64,000 nucleotides of DNA from contig CM000207.1 of assembly GCA_000002445.1 (NCBI GenBank), forward strand, positions 160,001 to 224,000, read 5' to 3'. This DNA comes from Trypanosoma brucei. Its lineage: Eukaryota. Below, piece after piece: positions 5,311-59,569 of this stretch (its first letter is position 1; each line of letters begins with the position of its first letter). The translations under genes and the position numbers were made by a program. Below the pieces are notes generated by a model. The model had not been told where the DNA came from and made no database searches. It saw only the letters and a program-made list of their open reading frames with translations.

Positions 5311-6327
5311 TTATGCAAACAGCCAAAATAAAAATATCCGTAGAAACTGTAAAATAATTTTGGCGGAACTCTTTTGTTCTTCTGGTGGTCTTGCCGTAGT
5401 GGCACCTGTTTCAGTGCTGGTAGTTGTTTGCGCATTTGGGTTTCCATCTTTTTGTGGTCCTTCTGTCCCCTTAGCTGGTGAGTTATCCCCTGTGCTTGGA
5501 ACTGTGTTTGGCTTTGGATATTTTTCCATGCTTGGCTTCCCGTCCGCACGTGGTTTTGTGCTTCCACTTGTACTTTCATCCTTGCTCATTTCTTCAACTT
5601 CTCTCACCAGATCTTCGAGCTTACTAAGCCATTCAATACCACTTGCGTTGTCCTCGTTAGATCCCCTTGGGTACAGCACACAAATGCCGTCGTTCTCTGA
5701 TTCCGCTCCATTGCAAGTATGCAGTCCGTACTCTTTACCTCCCCCGTAGGTATAGAGGTGTTCGCGTCCATCTGAGTTCTTACGTTTCTTTATGCGCATC
5801 CTGAATTGAACCTTATTCTCGTGAAATTCAGTTTCTGATGGCACACCTTTTCCACTTCCAGTTATGCATCTACTCCTCAAGTCGTCCCATGTGCTTCGGT
5901 GCTTTTGGATGGTTGGCCATTCCTGGGAGTTAACTTTTCTTACATTTCCCGTGTAACAAAGGTCCCTAAGATTTGGTTGCTGACCTGTTCCTTCGCACAA
6001 ACAAATAATATCTTTTACAAGAGACCTTCCTGCCGACGCAGGGATACCCCCACTGTCTTGTCCGTAATCCTGTTCTCTGTACCATTTCCATTTCATTCTA
6101 TTCAGATCATCAACTCCTGATTCAAACAATATATCTTTAACCCTTTTTTGCACAGAGGCCACGTCTGCTTTTGATTTTCCCTTCATTGTTTCAAGTGAAT
6201 CGCTTATTCGTCCAACGAAACTAACAAATTCACATAATATTTTAAATTCATCCTCATTAAGTATACCTTGCTCCGCGCCGGACACATAGGTCAATATTAA
6301 AGTCACACCAAGAACTAATCCCAGCAA
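5311..6327 (-). CDS. VSG-related surface protein (type-B-like N-terminal motif), 338 aa, signal peptide plus S/T/P-rich stalk plus C-terminal hydrophobic (GPI-like) tail
   Basis: ORF with an N-terminal hydrophobic leader MLGLVLGVTLILTYVSG. Its NEDEFKILCEFVSFVG motif matches the NxxEHAALCxF N-terminal motif of the + strand type-B VSGs in this window (28040, 52549, 57427). A DIICLCEG motif resembles the VSG-B LCLC motif. The C-terminus is hydrophobic (IILQFLRIFLFWLFA). The protein is much shorter than a full VSG (about 480-530 aa). Confidence 0.45.
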   Translation of the reverse strand: MLGLVLGVTLILTYVSGAEQGILNEDEFKILCEFVSFVGRISDSLETMKGKSKADVASVQKRVKDILFESGVDDLNRMKWKWYREQDYGQDSGGIPASAGRSLVKDIICLCEGTGQQPNLRDLCYTGNVRKVNSQEWPTIQKHRSTWDDLRSRCITGSGKGVPSETEFHENKVQFRMRIKKRKNSDGREHLYTYGGGKEYGLHTCNGAESENDGICVLYPRGSNEDNASGIEWLSKLEDLVREVEEMSKDESTSGSTKPRADGKPSMEKYPKPNTVPSTGDNSPAKGTEGPQKDGNPNAQTTTSTETGATTARPPEEQKSSAKIILQFLRIFLFWLFA

Positions 6328-6339
6328 CTTCTTTCACAT

Positions 6340-7857: not shown

Positions 7858-10800
7858 TTATTTGAGTCTTCTGCATGATTATCAGTAGCATCAATTTCAT
7901 AAGAAAGATTCACAGATTTGACTAGCGTGTGCCACCAGTATAATCTGAAGTAATTCCACAAGCAATTTTAGGCGCAATGCCGCACATCGTACAAATTGAT
8001 GATTCTGCAAAGATATCACTGATTTCTCTTCTTCTCCGTCTCTCTGTGTTCACCTCCTCGTGTGGTCCATAGTGGCATTTAGCAGTATCATATGTATCTC
8101 TCTTCTAATTTGTGCACGGTCAACTGATATTATTATATGTATAGCATTTTGGAGAGTCGCTCAGGCAGTAGTTTAGGTGCCACCACCAGTTGTGTTCCGG
8201 ATTTCATATTACTAGGTGATTTGTTACTGTAAATACCATGAATCAGCTGAGAGTTCCAGACACAATACGACACGCTCTACCTTGCATCCTTGCTGTGACT
8301 CTTGCTCTTTTCTTTTCGCCTCATAGAACCACATCTCAATTTTGCATATGACAGTGTGAGGTACAAGCACAAAGTGGTATGCTTGAAGTGGATTTTTGCT
8401 TGTCGCCCACTAATGTTGGTAGCTCACTGAGGGATGTGGTAGTCATGCGCTTGCAACATTTCCCACGTCCATTATGTGTCGTCGGAATCCCTTCCACAGT
8501 AACACGATAACAGGGAATACCTCAAGGTTCCTATCCTCTCCTCCATTCGGTTGCCACCAAACCCTAAAATCAGGAATATCCTTGAGGAAGTATCCCATTC
8601 AGAATGCGTCCTTTATTATCTCCATAATAAGTTGTATTCGCTTTTGTAGTGAGACCTGTTTATGGATAAAATTTCCAGAAGCGCCTAGTTGTTGTTGTTG
8701 TTTTCGCTCCGTCGTGGAACAGTGCGAAGTTGTACGGTGGCACCTGCGAAAGCGATCAGTTATTCGTGTCCGCTGGTTCGTTGATGATTGTGTCGCCACA
8801 GAAACCTTACAATTTCATACTATCTCTCTTTATCCCGATTGCTACAAACCACTCTCTTCTGACTGTCATTCAGATAAACTCGGCGCAACACATCACTTTT
8901 TTTTGTGTACAAAATCGCGCTTCGACAACATTTTTGTCCACCATATGTGTTACGGGATCATCGCGTATTTGATACCCAGCATTATTCCCACTTGCAAAGT
9001 CGCGAATGGTCTTCTGGTATTAGCTCAACTGGCCCTTACAACTTTCCCTTTCATACTGTTTCACGTTGTCAATGGCTTTCCGTTCCATCCACATAACTGT
9101 CATCACAGCTGCTAATGAGCAACGTGCAAAGAAACCTATGTACCTTTGATGTTAGGCTGCACAAAATCAATTCTATGTTGTCTGTGGCAAAAGATATTAA
9201 TGCATCGCAGTATATTTCCTCAATCGAGCTTGATGTTTCCCCTACGTTCCTCTGGGATTAGCCACGCACGGTTTTTCACCCTTTATATCTTTTGGAAAGA
9301 TGTGGATTGGGAAAATAATTCGCAAGCTTATGCATCACCACCCCTCCCTGGATTTCCTCCATATGCCTAGGATACTATCCAGAATTCCGTGGTGGATTTT
9401 GCTGTTGCTATTCTGTATGGAATGTGTTCTTCCTTAGGAGATAATCCGCACCTGATATTTTTGACCTCAAAACATCGACAACTGTCATAAACCTTCACGC
9501 TACGCTCTGTTTGTACCTTTCTCTGGTCGCACAATCACCAAGCCTGATAACATCAGTTTCATCCGTTGCGGGATGCTTTAGTCATTTCAGCCTCAGCATC
9601 CTTCAAGAGACGCTTCACTTCCACACATAGCAACTTGTATCTCAGAAGTTTCTGTAATGCTACCAACTTCGCCGTGGCTGAATTATCCTCAGTAAAAGCT
9701 AACATCCTTAAGTATTCACCAACTAGGTCATCAGGGTACAGAATCACATTTCGCATTACACTACGCCAATATGGCCCCCTTTCAGGGAATATATATACAG
9801 GGCAGCACTGTATAAAATGCAGGTGAGAGTCGAGAGCCCGTACACAAATGTCCCACAAAATGTATTCACCACACTCCTTCTACTCCCTTAATATTTAGAA
9901 GTCCCAAATGTTCATATTTTTCTGCAGCTGCTGAGGTCATGCCGTACATCCTACCACACAGATATTTCACACCTCTGTGCACAGAATGAAGTTTTCTAGG
10001 AATTTCCAACCACCGTTATTAACTTACTTCATGTGTAAAATAATAATAATAATAGAAACCAGACAGAACAAAAAGTAAGATCCTATTTGTCAACGGTAAC
10101 TTCATTGACAAACCCAACTCCTCAACGGGAAACCGAGAACAGGAAGCCACAAAGCATATGGCGCATATGATTTTCACCTCTCAGTTAAAATGAGGTGGAT
10201 TGCATGACTTACACACCTTCTAAGAGCACACCCTCCGAGTGACCCGATTATAAGAAAAGAGACACTATGACGGTTGAAAACAGTTTTTCATAAACCTTCA
10301 CTCCATCCGTGAGGATAAATGCGCAAACAATGATAACGATGGCAATACTAGTGAAAACAATGATGGAGCATTAGGATCATGGGGAAAAACATGTACTTTT
10401 ACATTAAGGAACCTTAATAAATAAAAAAAAAATACAAATGTTCCCTACACAGAGGTATAGGGGGTGTTCGCCAACTTCGCAACACTGGTCAAAAAGTATT
10501 TAAATGTATCGACCATTAGTGCAGTCAGTTGAATAAGAAGTAACATGTAATATATAAAAATATATACAAAACCTACAGACTCGAATGTCTCATCGTTATT
10601 CGCCCACTGAAAGTGATGTTAATTTCATGTTGAACAAAATGATGGAGACCGATACCGCAAATGCACCTCGTCCAAAACATATAACGCATACCAGTTGAAT
10701 GGAAGATACAATTTGTGTGCCCACATAATCTGCTTCATGCCATCACGTCAACACAACCAGGTGTCCGAATACTCCACAAATGTCTTCACCATTTGCAAAA

Positions 10801-14734: not shown

Positions 14735-15069
14735 ACGTAGGAGCTCATGGCAAGAGATGTTGCCAGAAGGAAAGAACGCGGGCTGTGGCGACCCCGTGCG
14801 CAACAGTCATATTCCATCGCGTGGAAGTTTGCCGTTGGCTCTATTTTTGAGAAGGTGATACTGCTGATGGCACGCTGGCACGTGCCCAGGGACCGACAAA
14901 TGAAAAACGGTGTCCCAGCAAGACGCCGTTGATCCCTGTGCTGTATGATGCCGTGGCCGGAGCAAAGCAGTGTTCCCCATGAGAGGAACGCTGCTGGCTC
15001 TTGGCTTCTCCCGATGAGACGGGGTACTGGACCCTGGCACCACGTTGAGGTGGCCGGCGCAACCAGGGT
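14735..15069 (-). mobile_element. RIME/ingi 5'-terminal fragment (about 335 bp)
   Basis: The reverse complement reads CCCTGGTTGCGCCGGCCACCTCAACGTGGTGCCAGGGTCCAGTACCCCGTCTCATCG... This is nearly identical to the 5' end of the full ingi at 43525. The translated minus-strand ORF (ATSTWCQGPVPRLIGRSQEPAAFLSWGTLLCSG...) matches the ingi ORF start (PATSTWFQGPVPRIIGGSQEPAAFLSWGTLLCSG) and diverges after about 250 bp. Confidence 0.75.
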
Positions 15070-23400: not shown

Positions 23401-26000
23401 TCTGAAAACGTCTTTAACCCGCCTCCCGCGCTCCCCTTTGCTTGCTCTTTGGACACCCATGGGGTTATCCTTCTGAGGTCACGTGAAACTCCATGAAGAA
23501 TTAATCTTTCCATTTCGCAGCACTCTCCGTCTATGGCTAAAGCCTCATGAATCATGGCATTGGTATGTGTGTTGCAATTCCCGCCATATTTTTTAAAACA
23601 ATAATATGCACCATAGTTGTGTTGACTACTCATACATGTACGAGACTCTTCAATCTCTTTCATAAGGCAAATATTCAAAAGTGGACCGCAGTTTCACAAG
23701 TAGCACTTGCAGTTAAGAACTTCTCTTCCGAATTGATAAATAATAAAACCACTCCCATCATCTTTGCATGGAAGCGTCCGTTACCATCATGGCCACAGTT
23801 TCTACAACTCGCTACGTGCTCACTGGTTTTTTCTCTACAAAAATGCACATCCATTGTTGTGTCAGCTGTAGCGCATATGTGTGTGTGTGTGTCTGTGTGT
23901 GGTGAAATGGTTAAATCATTGGGTCGCATCGGGACCATATTGCATCATGACAAATATCATGCTACCATTTAAAAAATAAGTAGCAGTAGTAGCAAGGAGA
24001 AAGCTATTGTTTTTTCTCACTCCTTCTGCCACGTACATCATGCATAATACAACAGTTTTCATTTATTCTATAGTAGATTTTTTCACATAGCAAGGGATAC
24101 TCGGAATTGTTGTGTCACTTTCGTTGTCCTAGCCATACTGTCTGCTTTTTATGGTTAAACTAAAACTCCAATGAAATCACATTGTTGTGTCATCTTTTGT
24201 GAGTCAACAATGATAGTATGCCCCACATTTCTTCATGTTCGTAAATATTTTGTTTCCACGACATTTAACCACGTCATGTGCCTCATACTGATACATATGT
24301 TGCATATCCATGTTTGAGTCCTCAATATTTCAGGGTTCGCCTGCTGCAGCCTCACGACATCGGCGTCTTCTGAAAAGACCCTTGTAATGGTGTGTAAAAT
24401 TCCAGGAGTCCATTTTATTAACTGATGGGGAGTCGATTAAATTCACTAATTCCTCATTTTAGTTAAGGTATCGGAACCCCACCCGAATATTCTCAGGTAA
24501 CTTCACTTGGGAGAGGAACGACTTTAGATCAAACATTGCTACAGACTGGTCATGGAGAGTATTTAAATACTGGGAAAAGTGACACAATGGGACATATGCC
24601 TCATAATCATCCCTGCTCTTTTTAGCCTTTGGTCATGCAATAAATCAACGCCTTCTTCCAATTCCGTGTTTCCTCCATCACAAATAATGGCACACAACCC
24701 ATCCTGTCGTATGTCTCTTTGAAACTGTGCTAATGATACGCGGCTGCTTCATTATTTGGGCATACTTTTCTGCAATGTGCAATTTCAGACTCCTTGTTTT
24801 ATACTCTCTCTTTCCACATCATCTGTGCTATTCTTAATGCTCCAAACCTCATCAAATCGCTTACTCCCTTCTTGCATCATCCTCTGTCAAATCCACTGAA
24901 GGGAAATCATTCCCACATTCATTTCCTATTGGAGAGGTGAAGTCTTTTTTTTTTCCTCATCCCGTGATGTCACCTTCATTTCCCCTTGTGAGTGTCAAGG
25001 AATGTTGTGCCCTTAATAATTTGGGAAAGTATTCCCTGTTATAAGTCCCGTCTTCCCTCACACTGAGGCTGCACATTCCTTCCAATTGTATCTTACATCA
25101 AAGACATTAAAAGAACCGACTTGCTGACGACAACTATCAATCATCTGAGATACCACACTGTGCTTTGTGGGAGTTCTGTTTTGTAGATGTGCTTTCCCAA
25201 TTGTATTAATAATATGTTGTCAATGTTGTGTTCCATTGCAACTACTGCCGCTGCGCGTGTCAGCAGTGCTCTTCTCTTTATGGGATGTTCTATCATTACG
25301 TATGGTCGTTTCAGTATGGTATCACTTTTCCCCTTTGTGGTAATCGTTATGAACTTCTTCCCCTTTCCTCCCGAGGTTCCTCCCTATGACTTTTCTCACA
25401 CTGGCAATATCCTTTTTCCAGTTGATAATTACGCATCGTGTGAGTCTGTCGGTATCGCTTTTGAATTTCTTTGGAAGGTTCCCTCCCAAAAAAATCCACT
25501 ATTGAGGCTTGCTTGCCATGTGAGTGTGGTATAACATTTTCCTTTTTTGGGAGTTGCGTAATTTCTTTTCCTCCAATGCTGGCTAATTCAGTCCATTGAT
25601 ATTGCAACTGGATACCACTCTGGACGGAACTTTCTGCAAGATATTATCGAATCCCCATTACAACATGTGTTGTGTTTGTTTGATGGGTTCACCTGTTACC
25701 GTATTGTAAAGACGGACCCCAAAAACAACATCCGCGTCGGTGTGTCCAATAGAAATGATGGAAGAGCTCTCCTGTACTGAAATGGCAATGCTCTTTGCGA
25801 GTCGTAAACTTACAACAACAAATAGAAGTGCAGTTGCATCCTATGCTGGCATGCGGTAATGATTTTCCGCCAATGCATAAAAACACCGCATGATGAATTC
25901 CTATTGCTCACATGTTTTAGTCCTCAGCCACATTCACTTTGCTATTCTGTTGGCTCCTGAAACCAATACCATGATGTACGGACAGCTTTTTGTGGGAACT

Positions 26001-26002
26001 GC

Positions 26003-26054
<52 letters not shown>

Positions 26055-26090
26055 GGAGAGTGCTGCAAGTGTGTATATACGTAGCTTAAA
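26001..26090 (+). repeat. 70-bp repeat (VSG-associated), (TAA)17 tract plus GGAGAGTGCTGCAAGTGTGTATATACG core
   Basis: Direct read. It matches the 70-bp repeat core seen upstream of every VSG in this window. Confidence 0.8.
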
Positions 26091-26828
26091 TCAAGTGTAC
26101 TGGTCGCCATGCTATGCAAACTCAAAGGTAAACAATTTCAAGTGTACAAAACGCAATGAACAGCAAATAACAGGCGGATAGCGCGTATTGCACGGACAGA
26201 AGTGAGGCCATACAAAGAGAGATAGCTATGGAATATGTGTGGGGTGAAGCGGAGCCATGCAACTCAGGGTCCTTATACGTGCGGTTGATGGGCCGCAAGG
26301 ACACAACCACAGGAAGATTCTAGTGCTCAGCCCAAATGGAGCTACCACATTACCCACAACAATAGTAAATTTAGTTAAAAATCCATGCCGATGGAAAATT
26401 TTGAAAATGAATAGTTGGCGTATTTACAGCACGAAGAGAGTAATATTCTTAGTAAACGTGAGGAAAAGTAGCGTATCTGGTTACTTGAATTTTCATAACA
26501 ATGTAAGTAAGGGTTTATGTAGCGTGTAGTAGAAGTTGTACATGAATATAAATTAAAAGTATAAACTGTAGATCCGTGATGATTTATGGTCTTCAAACAC
26601 TTGGAATGCACCGTTTAATAGCTAAATCAAAAACATATGAGAAAAAAGCATATATATATTGTTAAGTATTACTTCATAACTAATCATATTTTCAGCACAA
26701 TTTCCTTCTTTTCTTTTTAATGGTTTCTATGATTCTTTAAGGAATTTCAAGTGCTTTATTGCTATTATGATAACATCTTATGAAGCATATAGAAAGTATT
26801 TATGCGACTACATGTTGTTTAGCTTTCA

Positions 26829-27881
26829 TTGTTATGGGGATTAATGTACTTTTGTCTCTATACAGCTTGTTTGGTGAGGGTGACCCTATTTCATTTGAAA
26901 TTACTGAAGATGAGTATAAGATTTGTTTCGCAGGATGTGAGGAGGATATGGGAAATTGAAGATTATTTGGTTGTGGCTGGAATACCTTCAATAGATAATG
27001 ACGAAAGATTTAGAAGGAAAAACTTGCAGAGACAAACGTGTTGGAGTTATCCTGAAGTTGCGAGGAAGTCAAATAATTTTACTGGAAAATTGCTTATAAT
27101 TTATGCACTTTCCGCACATACAAATAACAATTGTGAGCTAAAAGAAATTGTTGAAGAGGAGGCAGAGTTAAATCAGGATGTTATTATTTTACCTGTTTGT
27201 GATGTAAATCCAACAACAAGTAAGAAAGTTGGAGAGGCGGGTAATTGGGGATGGGAACCGGAGATCACGATGAGTAGAAAAACATATTTGTGGTTCAAGT
27301 TCGCAGTTGAAATATTTAAACCAACTAATCCCTATATAATGAAAGCAGATGATGACATATTTATGAGGGTGCCATTGTATCTGAAATATCTGTATGGGCT
27401 TCCAAGAGAGAAATTGAATGTGGCAAGAGCGGTTGGTGAACTTGACGAGTCTATTGCTAAACTGACGTGGTATGTTGTTGGCTACGCAAATACAATTTCG
27501 AGAGGTGTCGTCAAAGAAATAGTTGGCTTTTCGCAAATTTCCAAACTATTAACCAGCAGAATCAGCTTTAGAAACTTTGACAAATATATTGAATATGCTG
27601 CCTTGAATGAGGATATTATGGTGGGGGAGGTGATAAGGCACAAAATGAAACTTGAAGGTTTGCTGACAGTGGGTATGCAGGATTGTCATTATGTGATGCA
27701 TGTGAAAAGACCACTAGATAGATTTGTAAAAGAAAATCCTAAACTTATTGTTTTTCACCACATTGCAGAGGAGGAATATAAGTGGCTAATGACGAATCCA
27801 CAAACAACGATTGAACGAAATGCAGAGCCGCTATTGAGGACGCAGCAAATAGTTCCATTCTGGCATGAAGCTAGCTGTTAA
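26829..27881 (+). CDS. putative UDP-sugar-dependent glycosyltransferase (trypanosome GT67-like), type II membrane topology
   Basis: 350-aa intact ORF. It has an N-terminal hydrophobic anchor (LMYFCLYTACLVRVTLF), a DxD-type motif (KADDDIF) and a GWEPE region typical of the kinetoplastid beta-1,3-GlcNAc/Gal transferase family. A polypyrimidine tract (ttccttcttttctttttaatggtttct, about 26700-26730) lies upstream. Confidence 0.6.
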   Translation: MLWGLMYFCLYTACLVRVTLFHLKLLKMSIRFVSQDVRRIWEIEDYLVVAGIPSIDNDERFRRKNLQRQTCWSYPEVARKSNNFTGKLLIIYALSAHTNNNCELKEIVEEEAELNQDVIILPVCDVNPTTSKKVGEAGNWGWEPEITMSRKTYLWFKFAVEIFKPTNPYIMKADDDIFMRVPLYLKYLYGLPREKLNVARAVGELDESIAKLTWYVVGYANTISRGVVKEIVGFSQISKLLTSRISFRNFDKYIEYAALNEDIMVGEVIRHKMKLEGLLTVGMQDCHYVMHVKRPLDRFVKENPKLIVFHHIAEEEYKWLMTNPQTTIERNAEPLLRTQQIVPFWHEASC

Positions 27882-28039
27882 CTTATAAATCCGAACAACA
27901 ACCCCGCAAAAAAATCAAAAGTCGACACAAAACAACTCGACTGCTATAAGTTCCCAACCAGTTTCTTAATTATTGGCAGCGAAGTTCAAGTAACTGAACA
28001 TCTTGACCACGAAAATAAAAGCAACTTAACACAGTAAAA

Positions 28040-29623
28040 ATGGGGGCATTAACAAAGGTATTGACACTTGTAGTTTTTGTTCTAGCTCAACGCATCAGTG
28101 GGTTGGATATGACGGACGGCGGCAACCGCCAAGAACACGCCGCCTTGTGCAGTTTTTTCGCAATGGCGGGGCGAAAACTCGATATTCCGATGATAGATCC
28201 GCTAGCCGAAGATGACTACAAATACATCCAAGAGCTGAACTTCACATTTGCGCCAGAAACATGGCAGAGCAAATTTTACAAAGAAGCAGACCGTACAACC
28301 GTCCACGGCGATGCTAACGCAGCTTCCCTTTAAAACGTCGGAGAGGAGCGCCACTGGCCAGACTGGAAAGAAGCGGCGCAGGCCTTCAGAAAAGAAAGCA
28401 AGGAAAGCAGGGTAAAAGAACTACTTGAGCCGCCGTTAACTTCCACAGCAAGAGGGATAGCAGCAGTAGAGGTGGCGGCAATCGCAGCCTCAGCTTGGAC
28501 GATAAAGCAGGACTATCCTGCGCTAACGGCAGAGCAGAAAGCGTACGCGGCAACAAACCCGCCGCCAGATCTGGCAAAGGCTTTATTCGGCGGCGGCGCA
28601 ACAACAGCAGAAACAGTAACGGCGAACGACCCTTTCGGCAAAAGCGTAGGATCGACGGCAAGAGACCAAATATGCGACGTCGGACACGCAAACTCGGGTA
28701 TAAAATGTGCAACAGCAATGCTAGCTTGCGTTTGCGAGCCGCACAACGCCCAGGCAACAACGAACGGGGAATGCACTGAGAAAGCAAAACCGGTCGGCAA
28801 TTGGAACGGCGGAGTCTCTGGACCCAGCCAAGCGGACCTGCAGAAACTCGCCAAGTCGTGCGGAACGCCTCCTTCAACAAAACTAACAAGGACGGAAATC
28901 CGGTCGGCGATAACTCATCTCCGCAGCTTAATACATTTTGACACCAACGACGGTTATTTAGGGCATTATTCAGGCACGGGTTGCAATGGCAGCAAAGGTC
29001 ACGGAATATGCGTCAAATTCACGAACCTGATGACATCGGACAAAACACAATTCGAAACAAAAACCTGGGTGGCTAAGTTCGTGCAAGCCGCGGAAATTAT
29101 GGACAGCCTACAACAGACCGCAGCAAAAGCCGCCGCCGTCAACGCACAATTGAAGAATATGAAGGTGGAGGCAACCAAAGCAGTGAAACACAGCAGAGCA
29201 CTTGCAACGGCTTTAAGCCAGTCACACACAACACCAGTGCAAAATCAAAAAATAGACCTCAAAACCCAATGCGAGCAACACAAAGACAACAAAACTGCAT
29301 GCGAAAATGCTCAATGCGCGTGGAAAGGACAAAAGGATGATGACGGCCCATGCACTCCAAGCGAAGCACAAGTTGCAGAACAATCAACCTAAGCAGGGGC
29401 AGGAACAGGAGCTGCAGCAACAACAACTGTAAAATGCTCTGATTATGGCTCAAAAGACAAATGCGAAGAAGTCAACAAGGATGGCAAAAAGCATTGCGGC
29501 TGGAGAAGTGGGAAAGATAACGAGAATAAAAAGAACAAAGGCAAATGCCGTGATTCCGGTTTACTCATCAATAAGAAAATTTCTCTGATGGCTGCTTCTT
29601 TTGTGAAATTGGTGTGGTTTTAG
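28040..29623 (+). pseudogene. VSG: VSG (type-B N-terminal domain), full-length, interrupted only by two in-frame TAA stops (28331, 29390)
   Basis: Signal peptide MGALTKVLTLVVFVLAQRISG. NRQEHAALCSFFAMAG motif. C-terminal domain with CEQHKDNKTACENAQCAWKGQKDDDGPC and KCSDYGSKDKCEEVNKDGKKHCGWRSGKDNE. GPI signal SGLLINKKISLMAASFVKLVWF. All parts are in one reading frame. The two stops look like CAA-to-TAA type changes (AEQST*AGAGTG versus AEQTTQAGTGE in the VSG at 52549). Confidence 0.85.
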
Positions 29624-29889: not shown

Positions 29890-29970
29890 AATATAGTAAT
29901 ATAGTATTAGAAATAATAATTTTAAGCATAGGATAGTGTTGTGAGTGTATATACTAATATTATAGTCGAA
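29890..29970 (+). repeat. 70-bp repeat (short, degenerate)
   Basis: ATAATAAT... then GGATAGTGTTGTGAGTGTATATACTAATATTATAGTCG core. Confidence 0.7.
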
Positions 29971-31201
29971 GTGGTGAAGACGGAGTAGAAGGTTTATTAG
30001 TGGAACTTGAGACAATGGCATGGGTGTTATTTGTACAGGTGGGTGAGTGGGGGTGTGAGAGAATACGAGAAATTTTATTGACGGAGACCCGGAGAGACAA
30101 AGAAGAATGGAGATAGAACTTGAGATTTTTCGGATGCATAAAATGATTATGAGAATTATTATACAAAATGAAATTATTGAGGGTATGGTAACAGAGAAGC
30201 ATGATCTGTTTTTTCAGTTTAATGGAGTCCCTAGCTCACATACAGCAGCAACTAGAGGAAAGAAAAACAAAGGAAGAAACATGATAAAACCGTAGGATAA
30301 CGCCCAGTACAGCATAGAACAAAGAATTATCATACATCAAGATGAACATGAGTCGGTTACTCAAAGCATTTTACTGAAAATGAATAGATGCCACCGCTAA
30401 GATGGTAGTGGATGTGGATTTCATCCTGATAGTGAATCCAAAATACGAGAATGAAGTTTAGCAGACGCTGCTCATTCAAAAAATAACTGCAGGTGTTAGA
30501 GGAAGCAAAAAGGGTTTAAAACAAAATTTTTATAAATAAAGACAAAACTGAATATATTTTAATAGAAATTTGTAGTTTGGAGTTTATGTTACAAAGAAAG
30601 CTGTTTCTTGTCGCCAATTGTTTATACACCAAAAGGATCTCTCATACAACAAGCAGTCCACCAGCATCCTTACAAACAAAAAAGACAATATATACCCAAA
30701 CAGAATTGAAAAAGTGACGTAAACTGTGTGGCACAAGAAATTAAAAGTTTAGCTTCGGTTATTGCCAATAAACCTCAAAGTAACAGCGCAAGATCAATAA
30801 AATTAACTGGAAAGCAACTGCACTTTAGTTAGTGGTTGGTTTTAAAAAACGGATAAATCAGCTGCTAAACTTGTACTACGCGCCAGAGCGACTGAGGAAG
30901 ATGTTCCCGCAACGTTGTAAGCTAGGAAGCTAAGAAGCTGAGGGAAATTTAACAAAGAGAGGGCTGCGACGAATAAAAGGAGGAAAACAAATGAATAAAG
31001 ATGTTGCATTTGGAGTAAAAATGCGAACCATATAATAGTTGAGAAACGAAGTAAAAATACTAACTATCCACTCCCTCTGGCAGGGATTTGCGACCAACCT
31101 TCAACCCTACACTGACAACTATAGAGATAAAGTAGCAAAGGCACCAAGCGCCGGGCACAACCGTCAGCAGGCAATAAGACGGGTTCGTAAGCAAGAACAC
31201 C

Positions 31202-42743: not shown

Positions 42744-43171
<428 letters not shown>

Positions 43172-43209
43172 TAATAATAATGATAATTATGATAGGATAG
43201 TGTTGTGAG

Positions 43210-43309
43210 NNNNNNNNNNNNNNNNNNNNNNNNNNNNNNNNNNNNNNNNNNNNNNNNNNNNNNNNNNNNNNNNNNNNNNNNNNNNNNNNNNNNNNNNNNN
43301 NNNNNNNNN
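43210..43309. other. assembly gap (100 N)
   Basis: Run of n characters. True size unknown. Confidence 0.99.
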
Positions 43310-43524: not shown

Positions 43525-46500
43525 CCCTGGCGATGCCGGCCACCTCAACGTGGTTCCAGGGTCCAGTACCCCGTATCATCGGGGGAAGCCAAGAGCCAGC
43601 AGCGTTCCTTTCATGGGGAACACTGCTTTGCTCCGGCTACAGCATCATACAGCACAAGGATCAGCAGCGTCTTGCTGGGACACCGTTTTTCATTTGTCGG
43701 TCCCTGGGCACGCGCCAGCGTACCATCAGCAGTATCATCCGCACTAAGATGCTGCTGTCCGGTGATGTGGAAGAGAATCCCGGCCCGTCGTTGCGCGGGA
43801 TGCAGTGGAACTGCGCCGGGCTATCTCAAGGAAAGAGATTAGCACTCCACAAAACCCTTGTTGATGAGCGGATCGCCTTTTGTCTGTTGAGCGAGACAAG
43901 GATGACGCCTGGAGAGGCGGCTTGCTTTAGCGTTGCTGGCTACCAACATCACGAAATAGCTCGTAACTGCAAAGGAGGTGGTGTATCAATACTAGTGAGG
44001 GAGGACCTACCAGTCGAGACCGGTATGGCCGTTGTTGGTCGCATTGAACAAGTGCATGCAACAATTCACCTTGCACGTGGAACGGCGCTGACTGTCACGT
44101 CGGCATACATCCCACCAAAACACACCTTCACGGCAACTGACCTAGATACGCTTCTGACGACTGACGGTGCCCAGCTCTCATCGGTGCAGACGCTAACGCA
44201 CACGCGTTGGCATGGGATCGCGCGAACCCACCAAATACCAAGGGTGAAACCCTCACACAGTGGTGCATTGACAACCAGTTTCTGGTCTGCAACACTGGTG
44301 AGTGCGCCATTTACACACGCCACCACGGGGAGTCCACCCCTGATGTGACACTGTCAAGGAATTGTACAGTGTACACGTGGACATCGCTGTATTCTCCCGA
44401 TAGCGATCACCATCACATATTTTTCGACGTTATCGTTGTAGACGACACAGATGCACTGAGTTGCCCGCGGCTTCGAAAGCCCATGTACGCATGGCTAAAA
44501 GCTAACTGGAGGAATTTCCGTCTCAAGGTTGACGAGCTCTGCAGGAAAATTGGTAGAGAGAAGAACGTCAACACCCTGGAACAGAAATTGAGCTCCGCCA
44601 TCCGCATTGCAACGAAGGTCTCCGTCCCCCGTGGCTGCAGAGTAACGCCACCACATTGGACACCTGAGCTCGCGAAACTCGATGAAGAGATCGCTGGATG
44701 CGGACCCTCCCACCGAAGGGAAAAGTTGGTAACCACGCGTAAGCAGATCCTGGACCGTACCACAAAGAAGAGATGGAGCACGCTATGCTCCAGACTTGCG
44801 GTGTCAGACCGCTGCAGTTGCCACATTGTCAAGAAGGTATATGCGCCACGACCACTAACCACACCGGCTGTACTTGTTGATAACGCGGCCATCACGGACT
44901 ACCGTCAAGCTGAGAGGTTCATTAAACTGTACTCGTCCCGCGCAAGAAGGCACCCCGACTCACACCCACCGGCACCAATAAAGACGATAGCGAGTGAGTT
45001 CAGTCTCATCACGATGGCTGAACTACGGAGATCGATCAAACTGCTACCGAGTGGATCCGCAGCCGGACCTGATTGCTTATACAACGAGGCACTGAACATC
45101 TCGGTAGAACAGCGCTGAATGTTGTTCTGAAGCTATTCTATGAAAACATACGAACGGGAGTCGTGCCGTCTGCATGGAAGATCGGTGTTATCATCCCCAT
45201 CCTGAATGCCGGAAAAAAGGCGGAGGACCTCGATTCTTACAGGCCTGTAACGCCCACGAGCTGTCTCTGCAAAGTCATGGAGCGCATAATTGCCGCGAGG
45301 CTTAGAGACACTGTTGAGTCCCAGCTGACGACGCAGCAATCAGGCTTTTGCCACGGATGCTCAACGCTCGAACAACTCCTGCACATCCGCGCTGCCCTCT
45401 GCCGTCCCACGCACCAATATCGTACGGGTGCTGTATTCGTTGACTACGAGAAGGCATTCGATACAGTAGACCACGACAAAATTGCGAGGAAAATGCACAG
45501 AATGAAGGTATCACCCCACATTGTGAAGTGGTGCGTATCATTTCTGAGTAACCGAACTGGCAGAGTGAGATTCAAGGAGAAGATTTCCAGCAGCAGAACA
45601 TTTGAGCGAGGAGTCCCACAAGGAGCTGTCCTTGGCCCAATCATGTTCATTATTGTCATGAACTCGTTGAGCCAGCGCCTTGCAGAAGTGCCGTTGCTGC
45701 AGCACGGATTCTTTGCAGACGACCTGACGCTACTTGCGAGGCACACAGAGAGGGATGTCATCAACCACACACTACAATGCGGTCTAAACGTGGTGTTACA
45801 GTGGTCAAAAGAGTACTTCATATCTGTCAACGTAGCGAAAACAAAGTGCACACTCTTCGGGTGTACAGAGCGCTATCACCTTACATTACAACTGGACGGC
45901 GAAAGAATAGGAGCTGACAGGACACCGAAGCTTCTAGGAGTAACATTCCAGTGTCTGCAGGGGATGGCAACACATGCGGCCGAAACGAGACGCAAGATGG
46001 ACTTCAGACTACTGCAGATAGCAGCCATCTCAGCTTCTACATGGGGGCCAAGACGACAAGTGTTGAGAGCTTTTCATCTGGAACTCGTACAGGCACACAC
46101 CATGTATGGCATTGAGGTATGGTACTGGGACGCTTCGAAACGAAATCGCGACCTCCTTGCATCAGCACAACACAAAGCCAGTCGCATCATAGCTGGCATA
46201 CCGCATGGGACGCGCAAAGAGGACTCTCTGCTGGAAGCAAACCTCCTGCCACTCAAGACGACCACTCTTGTGCGCAGCATGAAATTCATGCTGATGTGTG
46301 AGTCACGAGGCGGATGTTTGCGGCGCAGTGCTGAAGAAGTATACCACAGCAAACACCCAGTCAGAGTCTTACATTCCCGCATCATGCTGTCCTACCCCCA
46401 CCTCCGCATTGAGCCACGCGAGCAACCACTAGAGACATCGACGCTCCGCCACAGCTGCCGACCGCTATTTCACACGCAGATAAAGCCTGTGTGCGCTGAT

Positions 46501-48779
46501 GACCCTGACGATGTCAAAAGCGAGGCTTCCGAAAAGTGGATTGCACGGCATTTTGCACGGAGGGGGAAGGAGCCACAGCGGCGAGAGCACTACGAATTGT
46601 GGACTGATGGATGCGTGTCCCTCGGTGAGAAGTCCGGAGCAACTGCCCTGCTCTATAGAAACAACACGCTGATTTGCGCACCCAAAACTGGAGCAGGGGA
46701 ACTCTCATGCAGTTACAGAGCGGAATGCGTAGCATTAGAGATAGGACTGCAACGGCTGCTGAAATGGCTTCCGGCATACAGAAGCACACAGAGCAGGTTG
46801 TCCATCTTCTCTGACTCGCTGTCAATGTTAACAGCACTGCAGACAGGCCCCCTAGCCGTAACGGACCCAATTCTAAGACGACTATGGAGGCTTCTGCTTC
46901 AAGTTCAGAGAAGGAAGATACGTATCCGACTGCAATTTGTGTTTGGCCATTGTGGCGTGAAACGGAATGAGGTTTGTGATGAAATGGCCAAAAAGGCCGC
47001 AGATTTACCACAGTTGCGAGACACATGGATCCCCGACATCATTGCTTATGCGAAGCGAGTGCTTAGGTCGGAAGAAGTCCATGAGAACACTCATAGGTTT
47101 GGTATCACGGGCAACCACTTTACAACAAAACATAAGGAAGAACTGACGAGGGAAGAAGAAACGGCATTGGCACGCTTTCGGGTTGGGTCTTCAAGACACT
47201 ATGGATGGATGTTGCGAAAGATCAACCCGAGTGTGCCTCCACAGTGCCGATGGTGCAACCAGAAACATGCACCGATAGGACCAACAATACAAAAGGCCCC
47301 ACCTGTTGCGACACGCACTCTTCAGAGAACCTCCGAACCGACAAAATGTACGGAATGTGATGCCGCATACCAATGCCGCTCGAGTTCTGTAACGCACATG
47401 GTAAACAAACATGGCTTTGTGCGAGCTGATGCCCTCCGGAGGATCAAATACGGCGATGCAACACCCGCAGTGGATATCCCCCCGGAGCCCCCTCCAGTGG
47501 TGGCGATCGTTCCTCTACCATCGAACACACGAGTCCCGATGAGACCGCAGTTGCTTCATTGTACCATCTGTGCCTCCAAATTCGCAGTGCCAGGCCGACT
47601 ATTACACCACCTTAGAACAATACATGGCATAGGCAGCGGTAGTTGCCGCGTGAAAAGGGGGCGAGAGAACGAGGACTCATTGCAAGGAGATGGTAGAGCC
47701 CCAGCAGCGCCAGCCTCTCAGGATACACGGAAGCTGCCGTTTCAATGTGACCTGTGTGAGGCGAGTTTCGGTACACACTCTTCCCTGTCACTACACAAGA
47801 AATTCAAACATAAGAGCATAGTGACGGAGGACGGTACCGTGGTGGTGGTGCAATTCCCTCGTAAGCGTGCCCGTGAGGGAAACGTTGACGTGCCGGGGAA
47901 AGGCGAGGTGCAGTGTGGTGTGTGCCAAAAAGTGCTCAGTTGCAGGGACTCCCTCATCCGACACTGTAAGGCTTTCCACAAAGGTGAGGGTGTCGAGCTT
48001 AAATGCAGCAAAAGCAAAAAATTTTGTGCCACTGATTCCCCGCATACAAATGCATCCATGTTGGTGTGCCCGACATGCGGAAGGCAGTGTGCTAGCAAAA
48101 CTGGCCTCACCCTACATCAAAAGAAGATGCACGGTATGAAGGTAGAGCGCGCTGTTACCAGCCAACGCGGCGACTGTGAAGAAACGTCGCTGCACTCGAT
48201 GAGCTGTCCCGGTTTGAAGGAGTTACGTGTCAGGTTTGCGGTGGAAGGTGAGTGTGTGCAGGATATATGCTTCTCCAAAAGGCTGGCGCAGTTTCTCATT
48301 GCGGTTGAACGGAGCCGGCCGCAGGTGAAGTCCTCACCTAAGGTAACAGTCATACAACCCACTCTCCCTTCTGCAACTTCCCCCCTTATTGCCGAGTGTG
48401 GAGCTAGCAGGAAAAGCACCGGATGCAGGAATAGTCCAGACACCCTCAGAGACAGAGGGGGTATGCAGTCAACAAGCAACAAAAACATAAAAAGGGGGAG
48501 AGAATAATAAACGAATAACAAAAATCAAAACAAAAGGATTGCTAATTGACATCTTTGGGAGAGTCCGGAGTGGGGGGCTTCTCGCCCCATCTGCTGTATT
48601 CCGTTCAACTGCGGAGCTACAACAAAAATTATAGAGGGAGTGTTAGGATGAATAAAAAAGGGAGACTCTGCCACAGTCGCCAGATCGATAGCATCTCAGG
48701 GCTCTACGGTGATGGTTGATGGCCGCGCCAGTGGGGGGAAACTCTCACGAAGGCACGAAGAAAATTCCAAAAAAAAAAT
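43525..48779 (+). mobile_element. ingi non-LTR retrotransposon, about 5.25 kb, degenerate (ORF split over three frames), A10 tail
   Basis: The 5' end CCCTGGCGATGCCGGCCACCTCAACGTGG... is the RIME/ingi terminus. A 2A-like peptide SGDVEENPGP sits at 43758-43787. There is an AP-endonuclease-like region (MQWNCAGLS...CLLSETR). RT motifs are present (AVFVDYEKAFDTVDHD, GVPQGAVLGP, FFADDLTL). An RNaseH-like region is present (LWTDGCVS...AECVALE). Four C2H2 fingers are present (CTICASKF..HHLRTIHG, CDLCEASF..HKKFKHK, CGVCQKVL..RHCKAFHKG, CPTCGRQC..HQKKMHG). ORF segments are 43350-44348, 44207-45118 and 45073-48507. The poly(A) tail is at 48769-48779. Confidence 0.9.
45073..48507 (+). pseudogene. ingi ORF fragment: reverse transcriptase, RNaseH, C2H2 zinc-finger region (1144 aa, frame-disrupted relative to the EN region)
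   Basis: RT motif series and zinc fingers as above. The upstream EN part is in two other frames, so the element cannot encode the single roughly 1650-aa ingi polyprotein. Confidence 0.85.
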
Positions 48780-50206
48780 AGCGGTGGCAGCACTTGCATT
48801 CACGAAACCAACTGAGGCAGAAAATTCAGCTGCTGCTGAAGGAATAAAGACACGCCGCGATGAACTAAAATTCAATCATGCACTGGCCGAGGCGCTACGG
48901 AAAAACGTCAGACAGGCACAAGGCAACTTACAAAACATAAGAACCGAAACGCGGGCGCTTCTTCTGGCGGCAATGCTAGCAGACACAATAAAGCAGCGAC
49001 AGGCATATAGTGTTATAGCTGCATATTCCGACGCCAAAGCAACCGCGCTGAAGGCAACGATCGACACAAAAAGCAAACAAATTATAGACGCCGCCGACGT
49101 GCTGGAAAAGAGGAGCGCCCAATTAAGAGGGGCGATTTTCGCAGCGAAAACAAAGGCGGTAACCGTTTCCGGCTCAATAGCGGGAGCACTAGCCAATGAC
49201 CCTGATTTCGGGGGAACGGCGAAGACATGCACACTAAAGCTTTCAGTGCACGACACGGCTGACACGGCATGCGACACCTCAGCCAACTATGATGACACCC
49301 TCGCAACACTGGCCACACAAATTAATAACCTGAAGACCATCTATACAGTCTGCGATGAGACCCCAATCACAGAACAGCTGACGGCGGTAATCACAAGCAA
49401 AGGCGACTTCGCGAGCTCAGGGGACACAACAGCAGACGGAACCGCATACTGCGGTAACCATGCCACGCGATCAAGCGCAACACACGCCATTAGCATAAAA
49501 GAACTACACGGTGAAAGCAACCCGACACGCACGATACCACAAAACCTCGAAAACGACGGAACTTGCGTAAAGCCAGGAGCCGGCCGCAAGGACGGATTAA
49601 TAACGATAAGAGAGACCGCGGCCTCAAAATGCAACGCCAAAAAAAACCTCATATCCCCGGTAATGCCAGTAAGCAGCCCGTCAGCGACCCAGCTAATCGA
49701 CGACCCAACGTTCCAAAAGCTGGCCGCCCTAGCATCAGGACAAAACACACCGCAAACTACCGGCGGAAAAAATGACAAAGCAGCAGCGATCCAACTTTTA
49801 GGGAGCGACGAAACGAATTTAAAAGACAAGTATTTCACCCCACTGGAAAACCAACACGTAGAATTCAACCTAGGTGAAGAACTAATCAGAACCAGCATAA
49901 AATCGGCAGCTTCAGGTGACAATTACGGCGCAGTTTTGGCGTTTTCAGCAGGAAAAGCAGCCATTCAAGCAGTACAGAAGGACATACCAAAAGGAGTGGA
50001 AACAGAAGCTAACGATGACTGCACAGGAAAAGGAAAAGATGATTGCAACAACAAAACAGGGTGCAAATACAATGACAAATATAGAAATGCGAAAAAGACC
50101 CTGCAAAAGCTACAACGGCGGGAACACCAGTGACCAAAAACACCACAGGAAGCAATTCTGTTATGATTAATAAAACCCCTCTTTTCTTGCATTTGTGGTT
50201 ATATAG
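48780..50206 (+). pseudogene. VSG: VSG (type-A), N-terminally truncated at the ingi junction (no start or signal peptide), otherwise a continuous about 470-codon frame with one C-terminal shift
   Basis: Begins IAVAALAFTKPTEAENSAAAEG immediately after the ingi A-tail. C-terminal domain DDCTGKGKDDCNNKTGCKYN. Tail VTKNTTGSNSVMINKTPLFLAFVVI. Confidence 0.8.
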
Positions 50207-50555: not shown

Positions 50556-52548
50556 GTGAAGACTGAATAAACAACAAAAAAGAAACACAGAAAAGAGTTG
50601 TAGTGTTGCAACGAATGGAAGCTAGAAAAAAAGGGAAATGGAAATGGGAATATTTTAATGAAAACAAAGGCATAAATGGAAGTGGGGTATGCACATGTCT
50701 ATAAACAAACATGAATATAATCACCATTATACAAAAGAAAATAAAGAAGGAGAACATAAGATACAGACAGAGTCCAGTGAAGAGGCATAATGCAGTCTCT
50801 ACGTTACCTATAGTGAGACAGGAAACTAAGGACCATAAATTTTGATATTTTACATTTAGATACAGGGCGGAATGTTTTCTAATTGAGAGTGGAAACTTGT
50901 CGAACAAATTATAGAAGCTTCGTGACTGATTTACGCTCTTCAACTTTCTATTTTTCTCATAACAACTACAAATTTCACATGTATAATGGGGCATCAACTT
51001 AATTATCTTGGCAATTTTACTGGCTCTGCTGTCCTTAGTGTGTTTAAGCTCAACATATCTTGAGAACAATGATGTAACAAATTAAAAAACAATTATAACA
51101 AAGAATGATCCTAAGAAGCACAGAGTATTTGTGATTGTAGTTCAAACGCATGCAACTAAAGAATGGTGTAGGCTCATATTGAAATTATTACAATTGCAAA
51201 AAGAGGTTTGTATAGCCATGTTAAAAGGCCTAGATGGGTTATGCAATATTTAGAGAAACAGAATGCAAGTGATGAGGATATTGTAATTTATTTGGATAGA
51301 TCTGATGTTATAATATCCGAACTTTATAAGTATTGTAAAGCTGTGGAATATTTTATACAGAATACTGCAGAAAGTGAAGAGAAGTTTAGTAAATAGGATG
51401 TTTTCAAAGAGCATGTAGAGAGATGTTACTGGTTTTTTAATGTTGGATATAGAAAGGAAGAGGACAAAAAATTAAATCATTCTAAAATCGCCTCCTAGTG
51501 GAAAACCCTATCTTAGCGGTGGAGGTTTGATAGCCAGAGTTTGGGCAGTTAAAAGGTTTGAATATGCATTTGTAGAATTTTTGGGAGGAAGTAAGGAATG
51601 GCAGTCAGATAAGAGTATTTACAAGCCATTTCTTATTTGGAGTGCAACTCAAAAAGAAGCTGTTGGACAGAGAATTGTTTTGAATAGAGGAATGATTGGA
51701 TTGGATTATGAAGTGAAATTTTTTCACTCGACTTAGTGAAGGGTTTAGGAAAACTACATTCATTTATTTTCCAGGATAGCAGATTGCATGGGAAGAGTGG
51801 ACGGAATTGATTTTTTAAAACCTTAGTTTGTACAAGAACTTGAGATGGAGGAAATTCGCTGGTAGAGATATGGGGAAAATAGAAACTTATGCAATGGATG
51901 GAGGAAATGGGATTTTGTATATCGGGAAGTTTTGTGGTGATACGGGTACACAAGGACATTCTTTGAAGCTAAGCAGGCGTTGACGCAGGTCCTAAAATAA
52001 CTATATTTAACGACAAGCAGCTCTGAAAACTACTGCTGACATCCTAACGATGCCAAAGGAGTCTGAACCTTTCAACTCCTGCATAACCCAACACATGTTT
52101 ATATAATAGCTGTGTTGTTAAGCTGAATAAGAGTGCTAACCGCGTGAATATAGAAGACAGAGGCATGTTTCAGGGGGAAGCTTTGCGATATAGAAAAAAC
52201 AGTTCATATAATGCCTCGACAATAACGAAACGTTTTTGATGAAATAAACGAGGCTCTTCTTGTCAATGCAATTAAACATTCGAACATCCATCATACTAAT
52301 TGACTTTGCTGTCACATTAGCACTATTCATTAGAAAAGACTGAAACAAATTTTAGCGATAGGGAAGAAAACCACTACACACTGATAAGGTACAGAATTCA
52401 ATAAAATCTAGTGATACCAGCATCAAGTCACTCCTCGGAACAAAGAATTATAGCTTCAAAGCAACGACACAAAGCCGTAATCACGGCAAAGCGACGCACT
52501 CGCCACAAAATGCTGCTTTCATCAGCAAGAAGCACTCAACAGCGCAAC

Positions 52549-59520: not shown

Positions 59521-59569
<49 letters not shown>

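What the first reader, a model, noticed from the sequence alone, without database searches (positions are those of the whole stretch)
26001..28040. Glycosyltransferase gene occupying the co-transposed-region slot between a 70-bp repeat and a VSG
In this array every 70-bp repeat is followed 1.2-2 kb later by a VSG with only non-coding sequence between. The first unit is different. An intact 350-aa GT67-like glycosyltransferase ORF with a DDD motif and an N-terminal membrane anchor sits between the repeat at 26001-26090 and the VSG at 28040. Its stop lies 160 bp before the VSG start. Because 70-bp repeats are the upstream boundary of VSG gene-conversion cassettes, this GT could be duplicatively transposed into an expression site together with the VSG. 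It could also mark the array boundary.
Basis: inference. Interest (0 to 1): 0.55.

Follow-up and report, generated by a model that had tools for sequence, protein, structure and literature searches.

The report
Glycosyltransferase pseudogene inside a VSG cassette
A sugar-transferase gene already annotated in the Trypanosoma brucei reference genome sits between a recombination repeat and a silent coat-protein (VSG) gene; it has been copied together with that VSG at least once, but a 2-base deletion now separates its membrane anchor from its enzyme domain, so it is most likely a decaying passenger.

Summary
The window is T. brucei TREU927 chromosome 9. [quoted passage not shown]

It is a real GT67/beta3GT-type gene. 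It passes Pfam Galactosyl_T, carries all three GT67 motifs, and is 43% identical to a full-length 377-aa chromosome-2 member.

It is not intact. The native start (ATG 26780) and signal anchor lie in another frame, cut off from the catalytic domain by a 2-nt deletion near 26921. The VSG at 28040 is also a pseudogene, with in-frame stops at 28331 and 29390.

The 70-bp repeat is real, and no other spacer in the array carries a long ORF.

New here: a paralogous locus in T. b. equiperdum chromosome 9 has the same layout (single 70-bp repeat, ~0.7 kb, GT, ~160 bp, VSG). It aligns with window 26726-29382 at 79% over 2.7 kb. GT and VSG were therefore duplicated as one module, and their lesions arose independently. 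GT dN/dS is 0.13-0.24.

Transfer into an expression site is untested. GT pseudogenes in subtelomeres are already documented. Interest is modest.

The parts
26001..26082 (+). Single 70-bp repeat: (TAA)17 at 26005-26055 plus the GT-rich core GAGAGTGCTGCAAGTGTGTATATACG. The usual 3' part (AATATTATAATAAGAG) is replaced.
   Evidence: 93% identity to 59521-59594; matches every other repeat in the array.
26083..26725 (+). AT-rich spacer with no recognisable coding content. It holds one 90-aa ORF (26257-26529) that was not examined further. Only weak, inconclusive similarity to the equivalent spacer of the paralogous module.
   Evidence: local alignment z=8.5, but unrelated control spacers reach 13.7.
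26726..26779 (+). GT 5' flank where co-linear homology with the T. b. equiperdum module begins. A polypyrimidine tract at 26700-26725 is followed by AG dinucleotides, giving a candidate trans-splice acceptor (inference).
26780..26917 (+). Native GT start codon and type II signal-anchor segment (MKHIESIYATTCCLAFIVMGINVLLSLYSLFGEGDPISFEITEDEY). It is now in a different frame from the catalytic domain and reads on to a stop at 26957-26959.
   Evidence: tblastn of P0004 residues 1-46 to 26780-26917. Hydropathy 2.18.
26918..26922 (+). Site of the 2-nt deletion (frameshift). The window reads GAGTATAAGA--TTTG; the L002 paralogue reads GAGTACATGATTTTTG. Paralogue proteins read EDEYMRFV across this point.
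26844..27881 (+). Annotated CDS of XP_803396.1/EAN76242.1 (345 aa). Homology to the catalytic domain starts at 26916. Motifs NWGW, YIMKADDD and NEDIMVG are present; the stop codon is 27879-27881.
27882..28039 (+). 158-nt GT-to-VSG spacer, 86% identical to the paralogous module. It must hold both the GT 3' end-processing signals and the VSG splice acceptor (inference).
28040..29623 (+). VSG_B-type VSG pseudogene with in-frame stops at 28331-28333 and 29390-29392 and terminal stop at 29621-29623. It is 97% identical to Lister 427 VSG-1522, which has Gln where the first stop lies.
29893..29975 (+). Next 70-bp repeat, which opens the following cassette (VSG at 31202).

Best explanation
The locus is a silent-array VSG cassette whose repeat-to-VSG spacer contains a GT67-family glycosyltransferase gene. 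If the frame were restored, the gene would encode a 367-aa type II Golgi beta-Gal/GlcNAc-transferase-like protein.

The GT and the VSG downstream of it form one recombination module. That module has been duplicated within T. brucei subtelomeric arrays by cassette-sized gene conversion or duplication. The GT is a passenger. In this copy a 2-nt deletion uncouples the signal anchor from the catalytic domain, and the VSG has two nonsense codons, so both are most likely non-functional archive material.

Shown here: gene identity, the frameshift, the VSG stops, co-linear duplication of GT plus VSG, independent lesions in the two copies, and purifying selection over most of the GT divergence.

Inferred: loss of function, the duplication mechanism, and the ability to be copied into an expression site.
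For: Identity:
- The ORF matches XP_803396.1 at 100%. It passes Pfam PF01762, and the three GT67 motifs listed in PMC9472816 are present.
- The frame-corrected 367-aa protein aligns end to end with the 377-aa full-length members.

Frameshift:
- P0004 residues 1-46 map to 26780-26917 and residues 47-251 map to 26916-27530, in a different frame.
- The 2-nt gap is visible against L002.

Module duplication:
- L002 9894-12551 aligns with window 26726-29382 at 79.2% over 2680 nt.
- Identity is 70-91% per 100 nt across the GT, the spacer and the VSG. It dips to 50-64% in the VSG variable region and drops off outside the block.
- L002 has its own single 70-bp repeat about 750 bp upstream of its GT ATG.

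Independent decay:
- The window's 2-nt deletion and its TAA at 28331 are absent from L002. L002 has other indels.
- Lister 427 VSG-1522 has Gln at the position of the window's first stop.

Selection and recurrence:
- GT dN/dS is 0.23-0.24 against L002 and 0.13 against L001, so the gene was constrained for most of its divergence.
- A GT relic lies directly upstream of a VSG_B in T. equiperdum OVI.
- At least eight further fragments of the same subfamily are annotated in TREU927: Tb11.0730/0740, Tb11.1830/1840, Tb10.v4.0188, two more on chr9, one on chr4 and CAJ16295.
- Three of them (P0011, P0012, P0014) end at the same residue (...TYL). This suggests copies that were already dead were propagated (inference).
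- The chromosome-2 member (probably TbGT3) lies among core genes with no VSG nearby.
Against: - Clear homology between the two modules begins about 650 nt downstream of the 70-bp repeat, so the repeat cannot be shown to be the recombination boundary.
- Divergence is uneven: GT dS is about 0.5, VSG 5' dS 0.23, spacer 14%, VSG variable region dS 1.5. The module is therefore a mosaic of tracts of different ages, not one clean duplication.
- The 2-nt deletion could be a sequencing error in the reference; no reads were available.
- The annotated out-of-frame N-terminus is still moderately hydrophobic (1.54) and could conceivably act as a signal sequence.
- The indels in L002 lie in short homopolymer contexts and could be assembly errors.
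- Only three loci could be inspected at the DNA level.
Confidence: 0.72

Rival explanations
1. The GT is a working gene. Either the frameshift is a reference-assembly error, or the 345-aa product uses its fortuitous hydrophobic N-terminus. On this view the gene simply lives at the edge of a VSG array, like other subtelomeric GT67 genes, and is expressed on its own.
For: - All three catalytic motifs are intact and there is only one lesion in 367 codons.
- dN/dS of 0.13-0.24 shows long-term constraint.
- The gene has its own polypyrimidine tract and AG upstream of ATG 26780.
- Pereira & Jackson report that Tb927.9.800, a chr9 GT that may be this gene (identity not verified), is preferentially transcribed in bloodstream forms.
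- NCBI annotates it as a protein, not as a pseudogene.
Against: - The native anchor is out of frame, and paralogues read straight through that point.
- Every retrievable member of this subfamily is truncated or split.
- The gene lies 158 nt upstream of a VSG pseudogene in a silent array.
- Low dN/dS is equally expected if inactivation was recent.
Confidence: 0.15
2. The GT is an ancestral gene marking the boundary between non-VSG sequence and the VSG array. The 70-bp repeat upstream of it is an incidental orphan, and the GT is not part of any mobile cassette.
For: - It is the first + strand unit in the window. The 20 kb upstream holds no + strand VSG, only hypothetical ORFs, a RIME/ingi fragment and one minus-strand VSG pseudogene.
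- No VSG 3' end precedes the repeat.
- In L002 the module is also close to a divergent strand switch.
Against: - In L002 the equivalent module is preceded by a complete + strand unit: 70-bp repeat, VSG_B, VSG 3' end, 70-bp repeat.
- GT and VSG are co-linear between paralogous loci, which an immobile boundary gene would not produce.
- Multiple relics of the subfamily are annotated across TREU927 chr9, chr10 and chr11.
Confidence: 0.08
3. The resemblance between the window and L002 comes from a large subtelomeric block duplication that happened to include a GT next to a VSG, not from cassette-scale recombination.
For: Subtelomeres do undergo large segmental duplications (general knowledge). The 5' homology boundary is not at the 70-bp repeat.
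Against: - Homology is confined to about 2.7 kb.
- The flanking units differ. The sequence upstream of L002 9894 and downstream of 12551 matches other cassettes, or generic VSG 3' ends, better than it matches the window's own flanks.
Confidence: 0.05

Closest known systems
T. brucei GT67 family (UDP-Gal/UDP-GlcNAc-dependent glycosyltransferases), nearest full-length member XP_951590.1 on chr2 (probably TbGT3, Tb927.2.3370, lineage 7)
   Same: Pfam Galactosyl_T hit; WG, Y(I/V/F)xKxDDD and ED(I)(M)xG motifs; C-terminal Cys; about 370-aa type II layout once the frame is corrected; 43% identity.
   Different: The anchor is frameshifted away from the catalytic domain. The gene lies inside a VSG cassette, whereas the chr2 gene sits among core genes. 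No activity data exist for this subfamily.
Subtelomeric GT67 genes and pseudogenes, as described by Pereira & Jackson 2018 (PMC5853035) and Carnes et al. 2015 (PMC4288722)
   Same: A strain-variable, multi-copy, often degenerate GT in a subtelomere. The published explanation is expansion by transposition between subtelomeres.
   Different: As far as I could read them, those papers do not place the GT between a 70-bp repeat and a VSG, and do not show co-duplication with the downstream VSG.
VSG gene-conversion cassette (70-bp repeat, about 1.5-kb co-transposed region, VSG, conserved 3' end)
   Same: The upstream 70-bp repeat, the 1.96-kb repeat-to-VSG distance and the 3' homology limit near the VSG C-terminal domain all fit the cassette.
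   Different: The spacer contains a protein-coding gene, whereas all the other spacers in the window are non-coding. The VSG is a pseudogene. Transfer to an expression site was not shown.
Bloodstream expression sites with extra sequence between the 70-bp array and the VSG (BES2, 4, 7, 15; Hertz-Fowler 2008, PMC2567434)
   Same: They set a precedent for passenger sequences in the slot between repeat and VSG.
   Different: The reported passengers are ingi, VSG or ESAG3 pseudogenes. No glycosyltransferase is mentioned.
Human B3GNT2 (GT31), PDB 6wmm/7jhk
   Same: It is the only solved relative found by sequence. The match covers the DxD region (profile positions 158-215, E about 0.003).
   Different: The similarity is very weak. 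GT67 is classed as a separate CAZy family.

Membership tests
GT67 / beta3GT-like glycosyltransferase | Pfam Galactosyl_T (PF01762) match above the gathering score | tested here: met
   28.2 bits against a cut-off of 23, E=1.9e-6, residues 149-190.
GT67 / beta3GT-like glycosyltransferase | Three T. brucei GT67 motifs: WG; Y(I,V,F)xKxDDD; ED(A/V/I/L/M)(M/L)x(G/A) (PMC9472816) | tested here: met
   NWGW, YIMKADDD and NEDIMVG are present in the ORF.
GT67 / beta3GT-like glycosyltransferase | Sequence relationship to annotated or characterised T. brucei members | tested here: met
   100% to XP_803396.1, 82% to the chr4 paralogue, 43% to the 377-aa chr2 member.
GT67 / beta3GT-like glycosyltransferase | N-terminal type II signal anchor in frame with the catalytic domain | tested here: not met
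   The anchor is encoded at 26780-26917 in a different frame, because of a 2-nt deletion near 26921.
GT67 / beta3GT-like glycosyltransferase | GT-A fold | tested here: inconclusive
   The AlphaFold2 model built from a 16-sequence alignment had mean pLDDT 42.7, too low for a fold search. By sequence there is only a weak profile hit to B3GNT2.
GT67 / beta3GT-like glycosyltransferase | UDP-sugar transferase activity | not testable with these tools
   This needs a biochemical assay of the frame-restored protein.
VSG gene-conversion cassette | 70-bp repeat 1-2 kb upstream of the VSG, in the same orientation | tested here: met
   The repeat is at 26001-26082 and the VSG ATG at 28040, 1958 nt apart.
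VSG gene-conversion cassette | VSG with N-terminal and C-terminal domains and the conserved 3' UTR 16-mer | tested here: inconclusive
   VSG_B (E=4.5e-39 and 4.5e-16) and a weak Trypan_glycop_C hit are present. The best 16-mer match, at 29684, has 3 mismatches.
VSG gene-conversion cassette | Intact VSG ORF, i.e. usable as a whole-gene donor | tested here: not met
   In-frame stops at 28331 and 29390.
Co-transposed region (sequence copied together with the VSG) | The spacer is duplicated together with the VSG in another locus | tested here: met
   L002 9894-12551 aligns with window 26726-29382 at 79% over 2680 nt, covering GT, spacer and VSG. This holds only from 54 nt upstream of the GT ATG, not from the repeat.
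Co-transposed region (sequence copied together with the VSG) | Present upstream of a telomeric, expression-site copy of the VSG | not testable with these tools
   No BES, MES or minichromosome sequences could be reached. The BES survey text does not mention a GT.

The most novel reading that the evidence does not exclude
GT-VSG modules might be a selected two-gene unit. When such a VSG is copied into an expression site from the 70-bp repeat, a glycosyltransferase gene would arrive with it and be transcribed by Pol I, coupling a change in glycan-modifying capacity to a coat switch. The low dN/dS of the array GTs (0.13-0.24) would then reflect selection acting during episodes of expression.
Probability: 0.05. 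Interest if true: 0.75.

Novelty: already known. Interest (0 to 1): 0.27.

Why it matters
The gene is already in the reference annotation. The abundance and strain variability of GT pseudogenes in T. brucei subtelomeres is also published. On its face the finding is therefore ordinary.

The small addition here is structural. At least one GT67 subfamily does not just lie 'in subtelomeres'. It occupies the spacer between the 70-bp repeat and the VSG, and has been duplicated co-linearly with its VSG.

That offers a concrete route for the 'transposition between subtelomeres' that Pereira & Jackson invoked to explain GT67 expansion. It also gives a sequence marker for tracing the boundaries of old VSG conversion tracts.

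It would become important only if such a cassette were found in an active expression site.

Tried and rejected
- **TREU927 paralogue DNA.** The look-up of encoding contigs could not retrieve any TREU927 locus (P0001, P0002 and P0005 are not on record). The chr4, chr10 and chr11 relics, and the other chr9 relics, could therefore not be inspected as DNA.
- **Similarity between spacers.** I asked whether the GT-containing spacer resembles the other cassettes' spacers. The test is uninformative, because the other spacers share no similarity with each other either.
- **Homology back to the 70-bp repeat.** A global alignment with free end gaps collapsed. A local alignment gave z=8.5, but unrelated control spacers reached 13.7, so the result is inconclusive.
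- **Sequence upstream of the repeat.** A six-frame Pfam scan of the minus strand of about 20.8-26 kb found nothing. Pfam on individual left-hand ORFs found only the minus-strand VSG_B.
- **Structure.** The AlphaFold2 model had pLDDT 42.7, so no fold search was run.
- **Literature.** Searches for a glycosyltransferase in a co-transposed region or VSG cassette found nothing specific. Accession searches found nothing. A search for 'Tb927.9.800' returned mostly unrelated Tb927.9.8000-type hits, so the TriTrypDB gene ID remains unverified.
- **VSG homologue search.** It found Lister 427 VSG-1522 (97%) but no contig, so the Lister 427 upstream region could not be checked.
- **Large block duplication.** Considered and rejected, because homology is limited to about 2.7 kb.
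Full report
[quoted passage not shown] It lies on a 3,057,547-bp record, presumably chromosome 9. Exact look-ups of neighbouring ORFs give the gene order along the + strand:
- EAN76233 at 8474-9115
- EAN76241 at 25187-25534, a hypothetical protein
- EAN76242, the GT
- EAN76243, the VSG at 48712-50133
- EAN76244, the VSG at 61099-62550

The low accession numbers suggest the window lies near the left end of the chromosome record (inference).

**What was checked in the observation.** The 70-bp repeat is real. It consists of (TAA)17 at 26005-26055 followed by GAGAGTGCTGCAAGTGTGTATATACG. It is 93% identical to the repeat at 59521-59594 and matches every other repeat in the array. A related core motif occurs 15 times in the window against 0.28 expected by chance.

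Repeat cores lie at 29941, 33127, 36300, 39646, 50521, 55538, 59489/59584 and 62960/63091. Each is followed 1.2-2.0 kb later by a VSG:
- VSG 3' UTR 16-mer matches are.
- For the units with no Pfam hit, two are annotated VSGs. The rest are assigned from array position and the 16-mer.

An ingi retrotransposon (endonuclease, RT, RNase H) sits at about 43.2-48.5 kb, next to a 100-N gap. In the other spacers the longest + strand ATG-ORF is 85 aa or less, against 345 aa in this one. tblastn finds no other GT relic in the window. The GT stop codon is 27879-27881 and the VSG ATG is at 28040, 158 nt later.

**The ORF is a glycosyltransferase gene, but it is not intact.**
- It passes Pfam Galactosyl_T at 28.2 bits (cut-off 23).
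- It carries the three GT67 motifs listed by Duncan & Ferguson (PMC9472816): NWGW, YIMKADDD and NEDIMVG.
- The family's real N-terminus is elsewhere. ATG 26780 opens MKHIESIYATTCCLAFIVMGINVLLSLYSLFGEGDPISFEITEDEY..., which matches the signal anchor of paralogue Tb10.v4.0188 (P0004).
- tblastn places P0004 residues 1-46 on 26780-26917 and residues 47-251 on 26916-27530, in a different frame.
- Against the T. b. equiperdum paralogue, the window has a 2-nt gap after 26921: GAGTATAAGA--TTTG versus GAGTACATGATTTTTG.
- With the frame restored, the 367-aa protein aligns end to end with the 377-aa full-length members, including the C-terminal Cys.

Its Kyte-Doolittle maximum is 1.54 and it contains an internal Arg, against 2.18 for the native frame.

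The downstream VSG is also a pseudogene, with stops at 28331 and 29390. Its Lister 427 counterpart, VSG-1522 (97% identity), has Gln at the position of the first stop.

**GT and VSG form a duplicated module.** The subfamily's fragment P0016 led to T. b. equiperdum IVM-t1 chr9 (locus L002).
- L002 9894-12551 aligns with window 26726-29382 at 79.2% over 2680 nt.
- Identity is 70-91% per 100 nt across the GT, the 158-nt spacer (86%) and the VSG.
- It dips to 50-64% in the VSG variable region (28442-28940) and drops off on both sides of the block.
- L002 also has a single degenerate 70-bp repeat (9133-9195) about 750 bp upstream of its GT ATG. That is the same architecture as in the window, where the distance is about 700 bp.
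- Outside the 2.7-kb block the neighbouring cassettes are not homologous, so this is cassette-scale duplication and not a large block duplication.

The lesions differ between the two copies, so the ancestral module carried an open GT and an open VSG.

A third locus is T. equiperdum OVI contig CZPT02000975.1 (L001). It has a GT relic that is 80.6% identical at the nucleotide level to window 26770-27423, with its own frame break. About 470 bp downstream lies a VSG_B that is unrelated to the window's VSG.

By contrast, the T. b. gambiense orthologue of the full-length chr2 member (probably TbGT3) lies among core genes with no VSG nearby.

**History of the GT.** Nei-Gojobori dN/dS for the catalytic domain is 0.23-0.24 against L002 and 0.13 against L001 (5' half). 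Most of the divergence therefore accumulated under protein-level constraint, or through patchwise conversion from functional paralogues.

Synonymous divergence is uneven: about 0.5 for the GT, 0.23 for the VSG 5' part and 1.5 for the VSG variable region. The module is therefore a mosaic of tracts of different ages.

Every retrievable member of the subfamily in TREU927 is truncated or split:
- Tb11.0730/0740
- Tb11.1830/1840
- Tb10.v4.0188
- EAN77410 and EAN77432 on chr9
- the chr4 copy
- CAJ16295

Three of them end at exactly the same residue (...TYL). This suggests that copies already dead were multiplied (inference).

**Comparison with the literature.** Pereira & Jackson (PMC5853035) state that lineage 1 and 7 UGTs are mostly subtelomeric, and propose expansion by transposition between subtelomeres. 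Carnes et al. [quoted passage not shown] Hovel-Miner et al. (PMC4858185) place 70-bp repeats about 1.5 kb upstream of VSGs. Hertz-Fowler et al. (PMC2567434) report that most bloodstream expression sites (BES) carry only the VSG beyond the 70-bp array, with ingi, VSG or ESAG3 pseudogenes as the exceptions; their text never mentions a glycosyltransferase. I found no paper in the searchable library that places a GT inside a VSG cassette. The arrangement is nonetheless visible in the public annotation.

**Verdict.** The GT67 identification is right. 'Intact with an N-terminal anchor' is wrong.

It is untested for expression sites.

The most likely reading (about 0.7) is a decaying passenger gene in a duplicated GT-VSG module. 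The gene and the general phenomenon are already known, so interest is modest. The one reading that would matter, co-delivery of a glycosyltransferase with a VSG into an active expression site, is not excluded but is unlikely (about 0.05).

Noticed in passing
window 5314-6333 (-): A VSG_B-type pseudogene fragment lies on the minus strand (Pfam E=6e-28). The window therefore contains oppositely oriented VSG material about 20 kb to the left of the + strand array.
   Followed up: partly
window 14856-15058 (-) versus 43535-43737 (+): A 203-bp fragment is 94.6% identical to the 5' (RIME-like) end of the ingi element at 43.2-48.5 kb. It looks like an isolated retroelement relic in the non-VSG left part of the window.
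   Followed up: partly
window 42746-43309: An unusually long (TAA)n tract of 441 bp is followed by the start of a 70-bp core, then a 100-N assembly gap (43210-43309), then directly by an ingi element. The VSG at 48712-50133 has the ingi where its usual repeat-plus-spacer would be.
   Followed up: partly
window 51085-51944; L002 6049-6867 and 17351-18322: The spacer of the unit whose VSG starts at about 52570 shares 71-77% identity with two spacers in the T. b. equiperdum locus, each downstream of a 70-bp repeat. This is a second conserved 'co-transposed' spacer family. It has no Pfam-recognisable coding content.
   Followed up: partly
window 28040-29389 versus Lister 427 VSG-1522 (P0017): The pseudogene VSG has a 97%-identical counterpart in the Lister 427 VSGnome that lacks the first nonsense codon (Gln in place of the stop). 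The TREU927 stop may therefore be recent.
   Followed up: partly
window 25187-25534 (+): The annotated hypothetical protein EAN76241 lies immediately upstream of the 70-bp repeat. It falls in the same 90%-identity cluster as a 104-aa protein on T. b. equiperdum chromosome 2 (DPX39_020031900). It has no Pfam domain.
   Followed up: no
P0011, P0012, P0014 (TREU927 Tb11.0730, Tb11.1830, EAN77432): Three GT N-terminal fragments from different array loci all end at the same residue (...TYL, just before the conserved WFKF). This suggests a shared nonsense mutation that was propagated by duplication after the gene died. It could not be checked at the DNA level.
   Followed up: no
window 26767-26844: A short upstream ATG at 26767, in a third frame, precedes the native GT start at 26780. 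The L002 paralogue lacks it.
   Followed up: no
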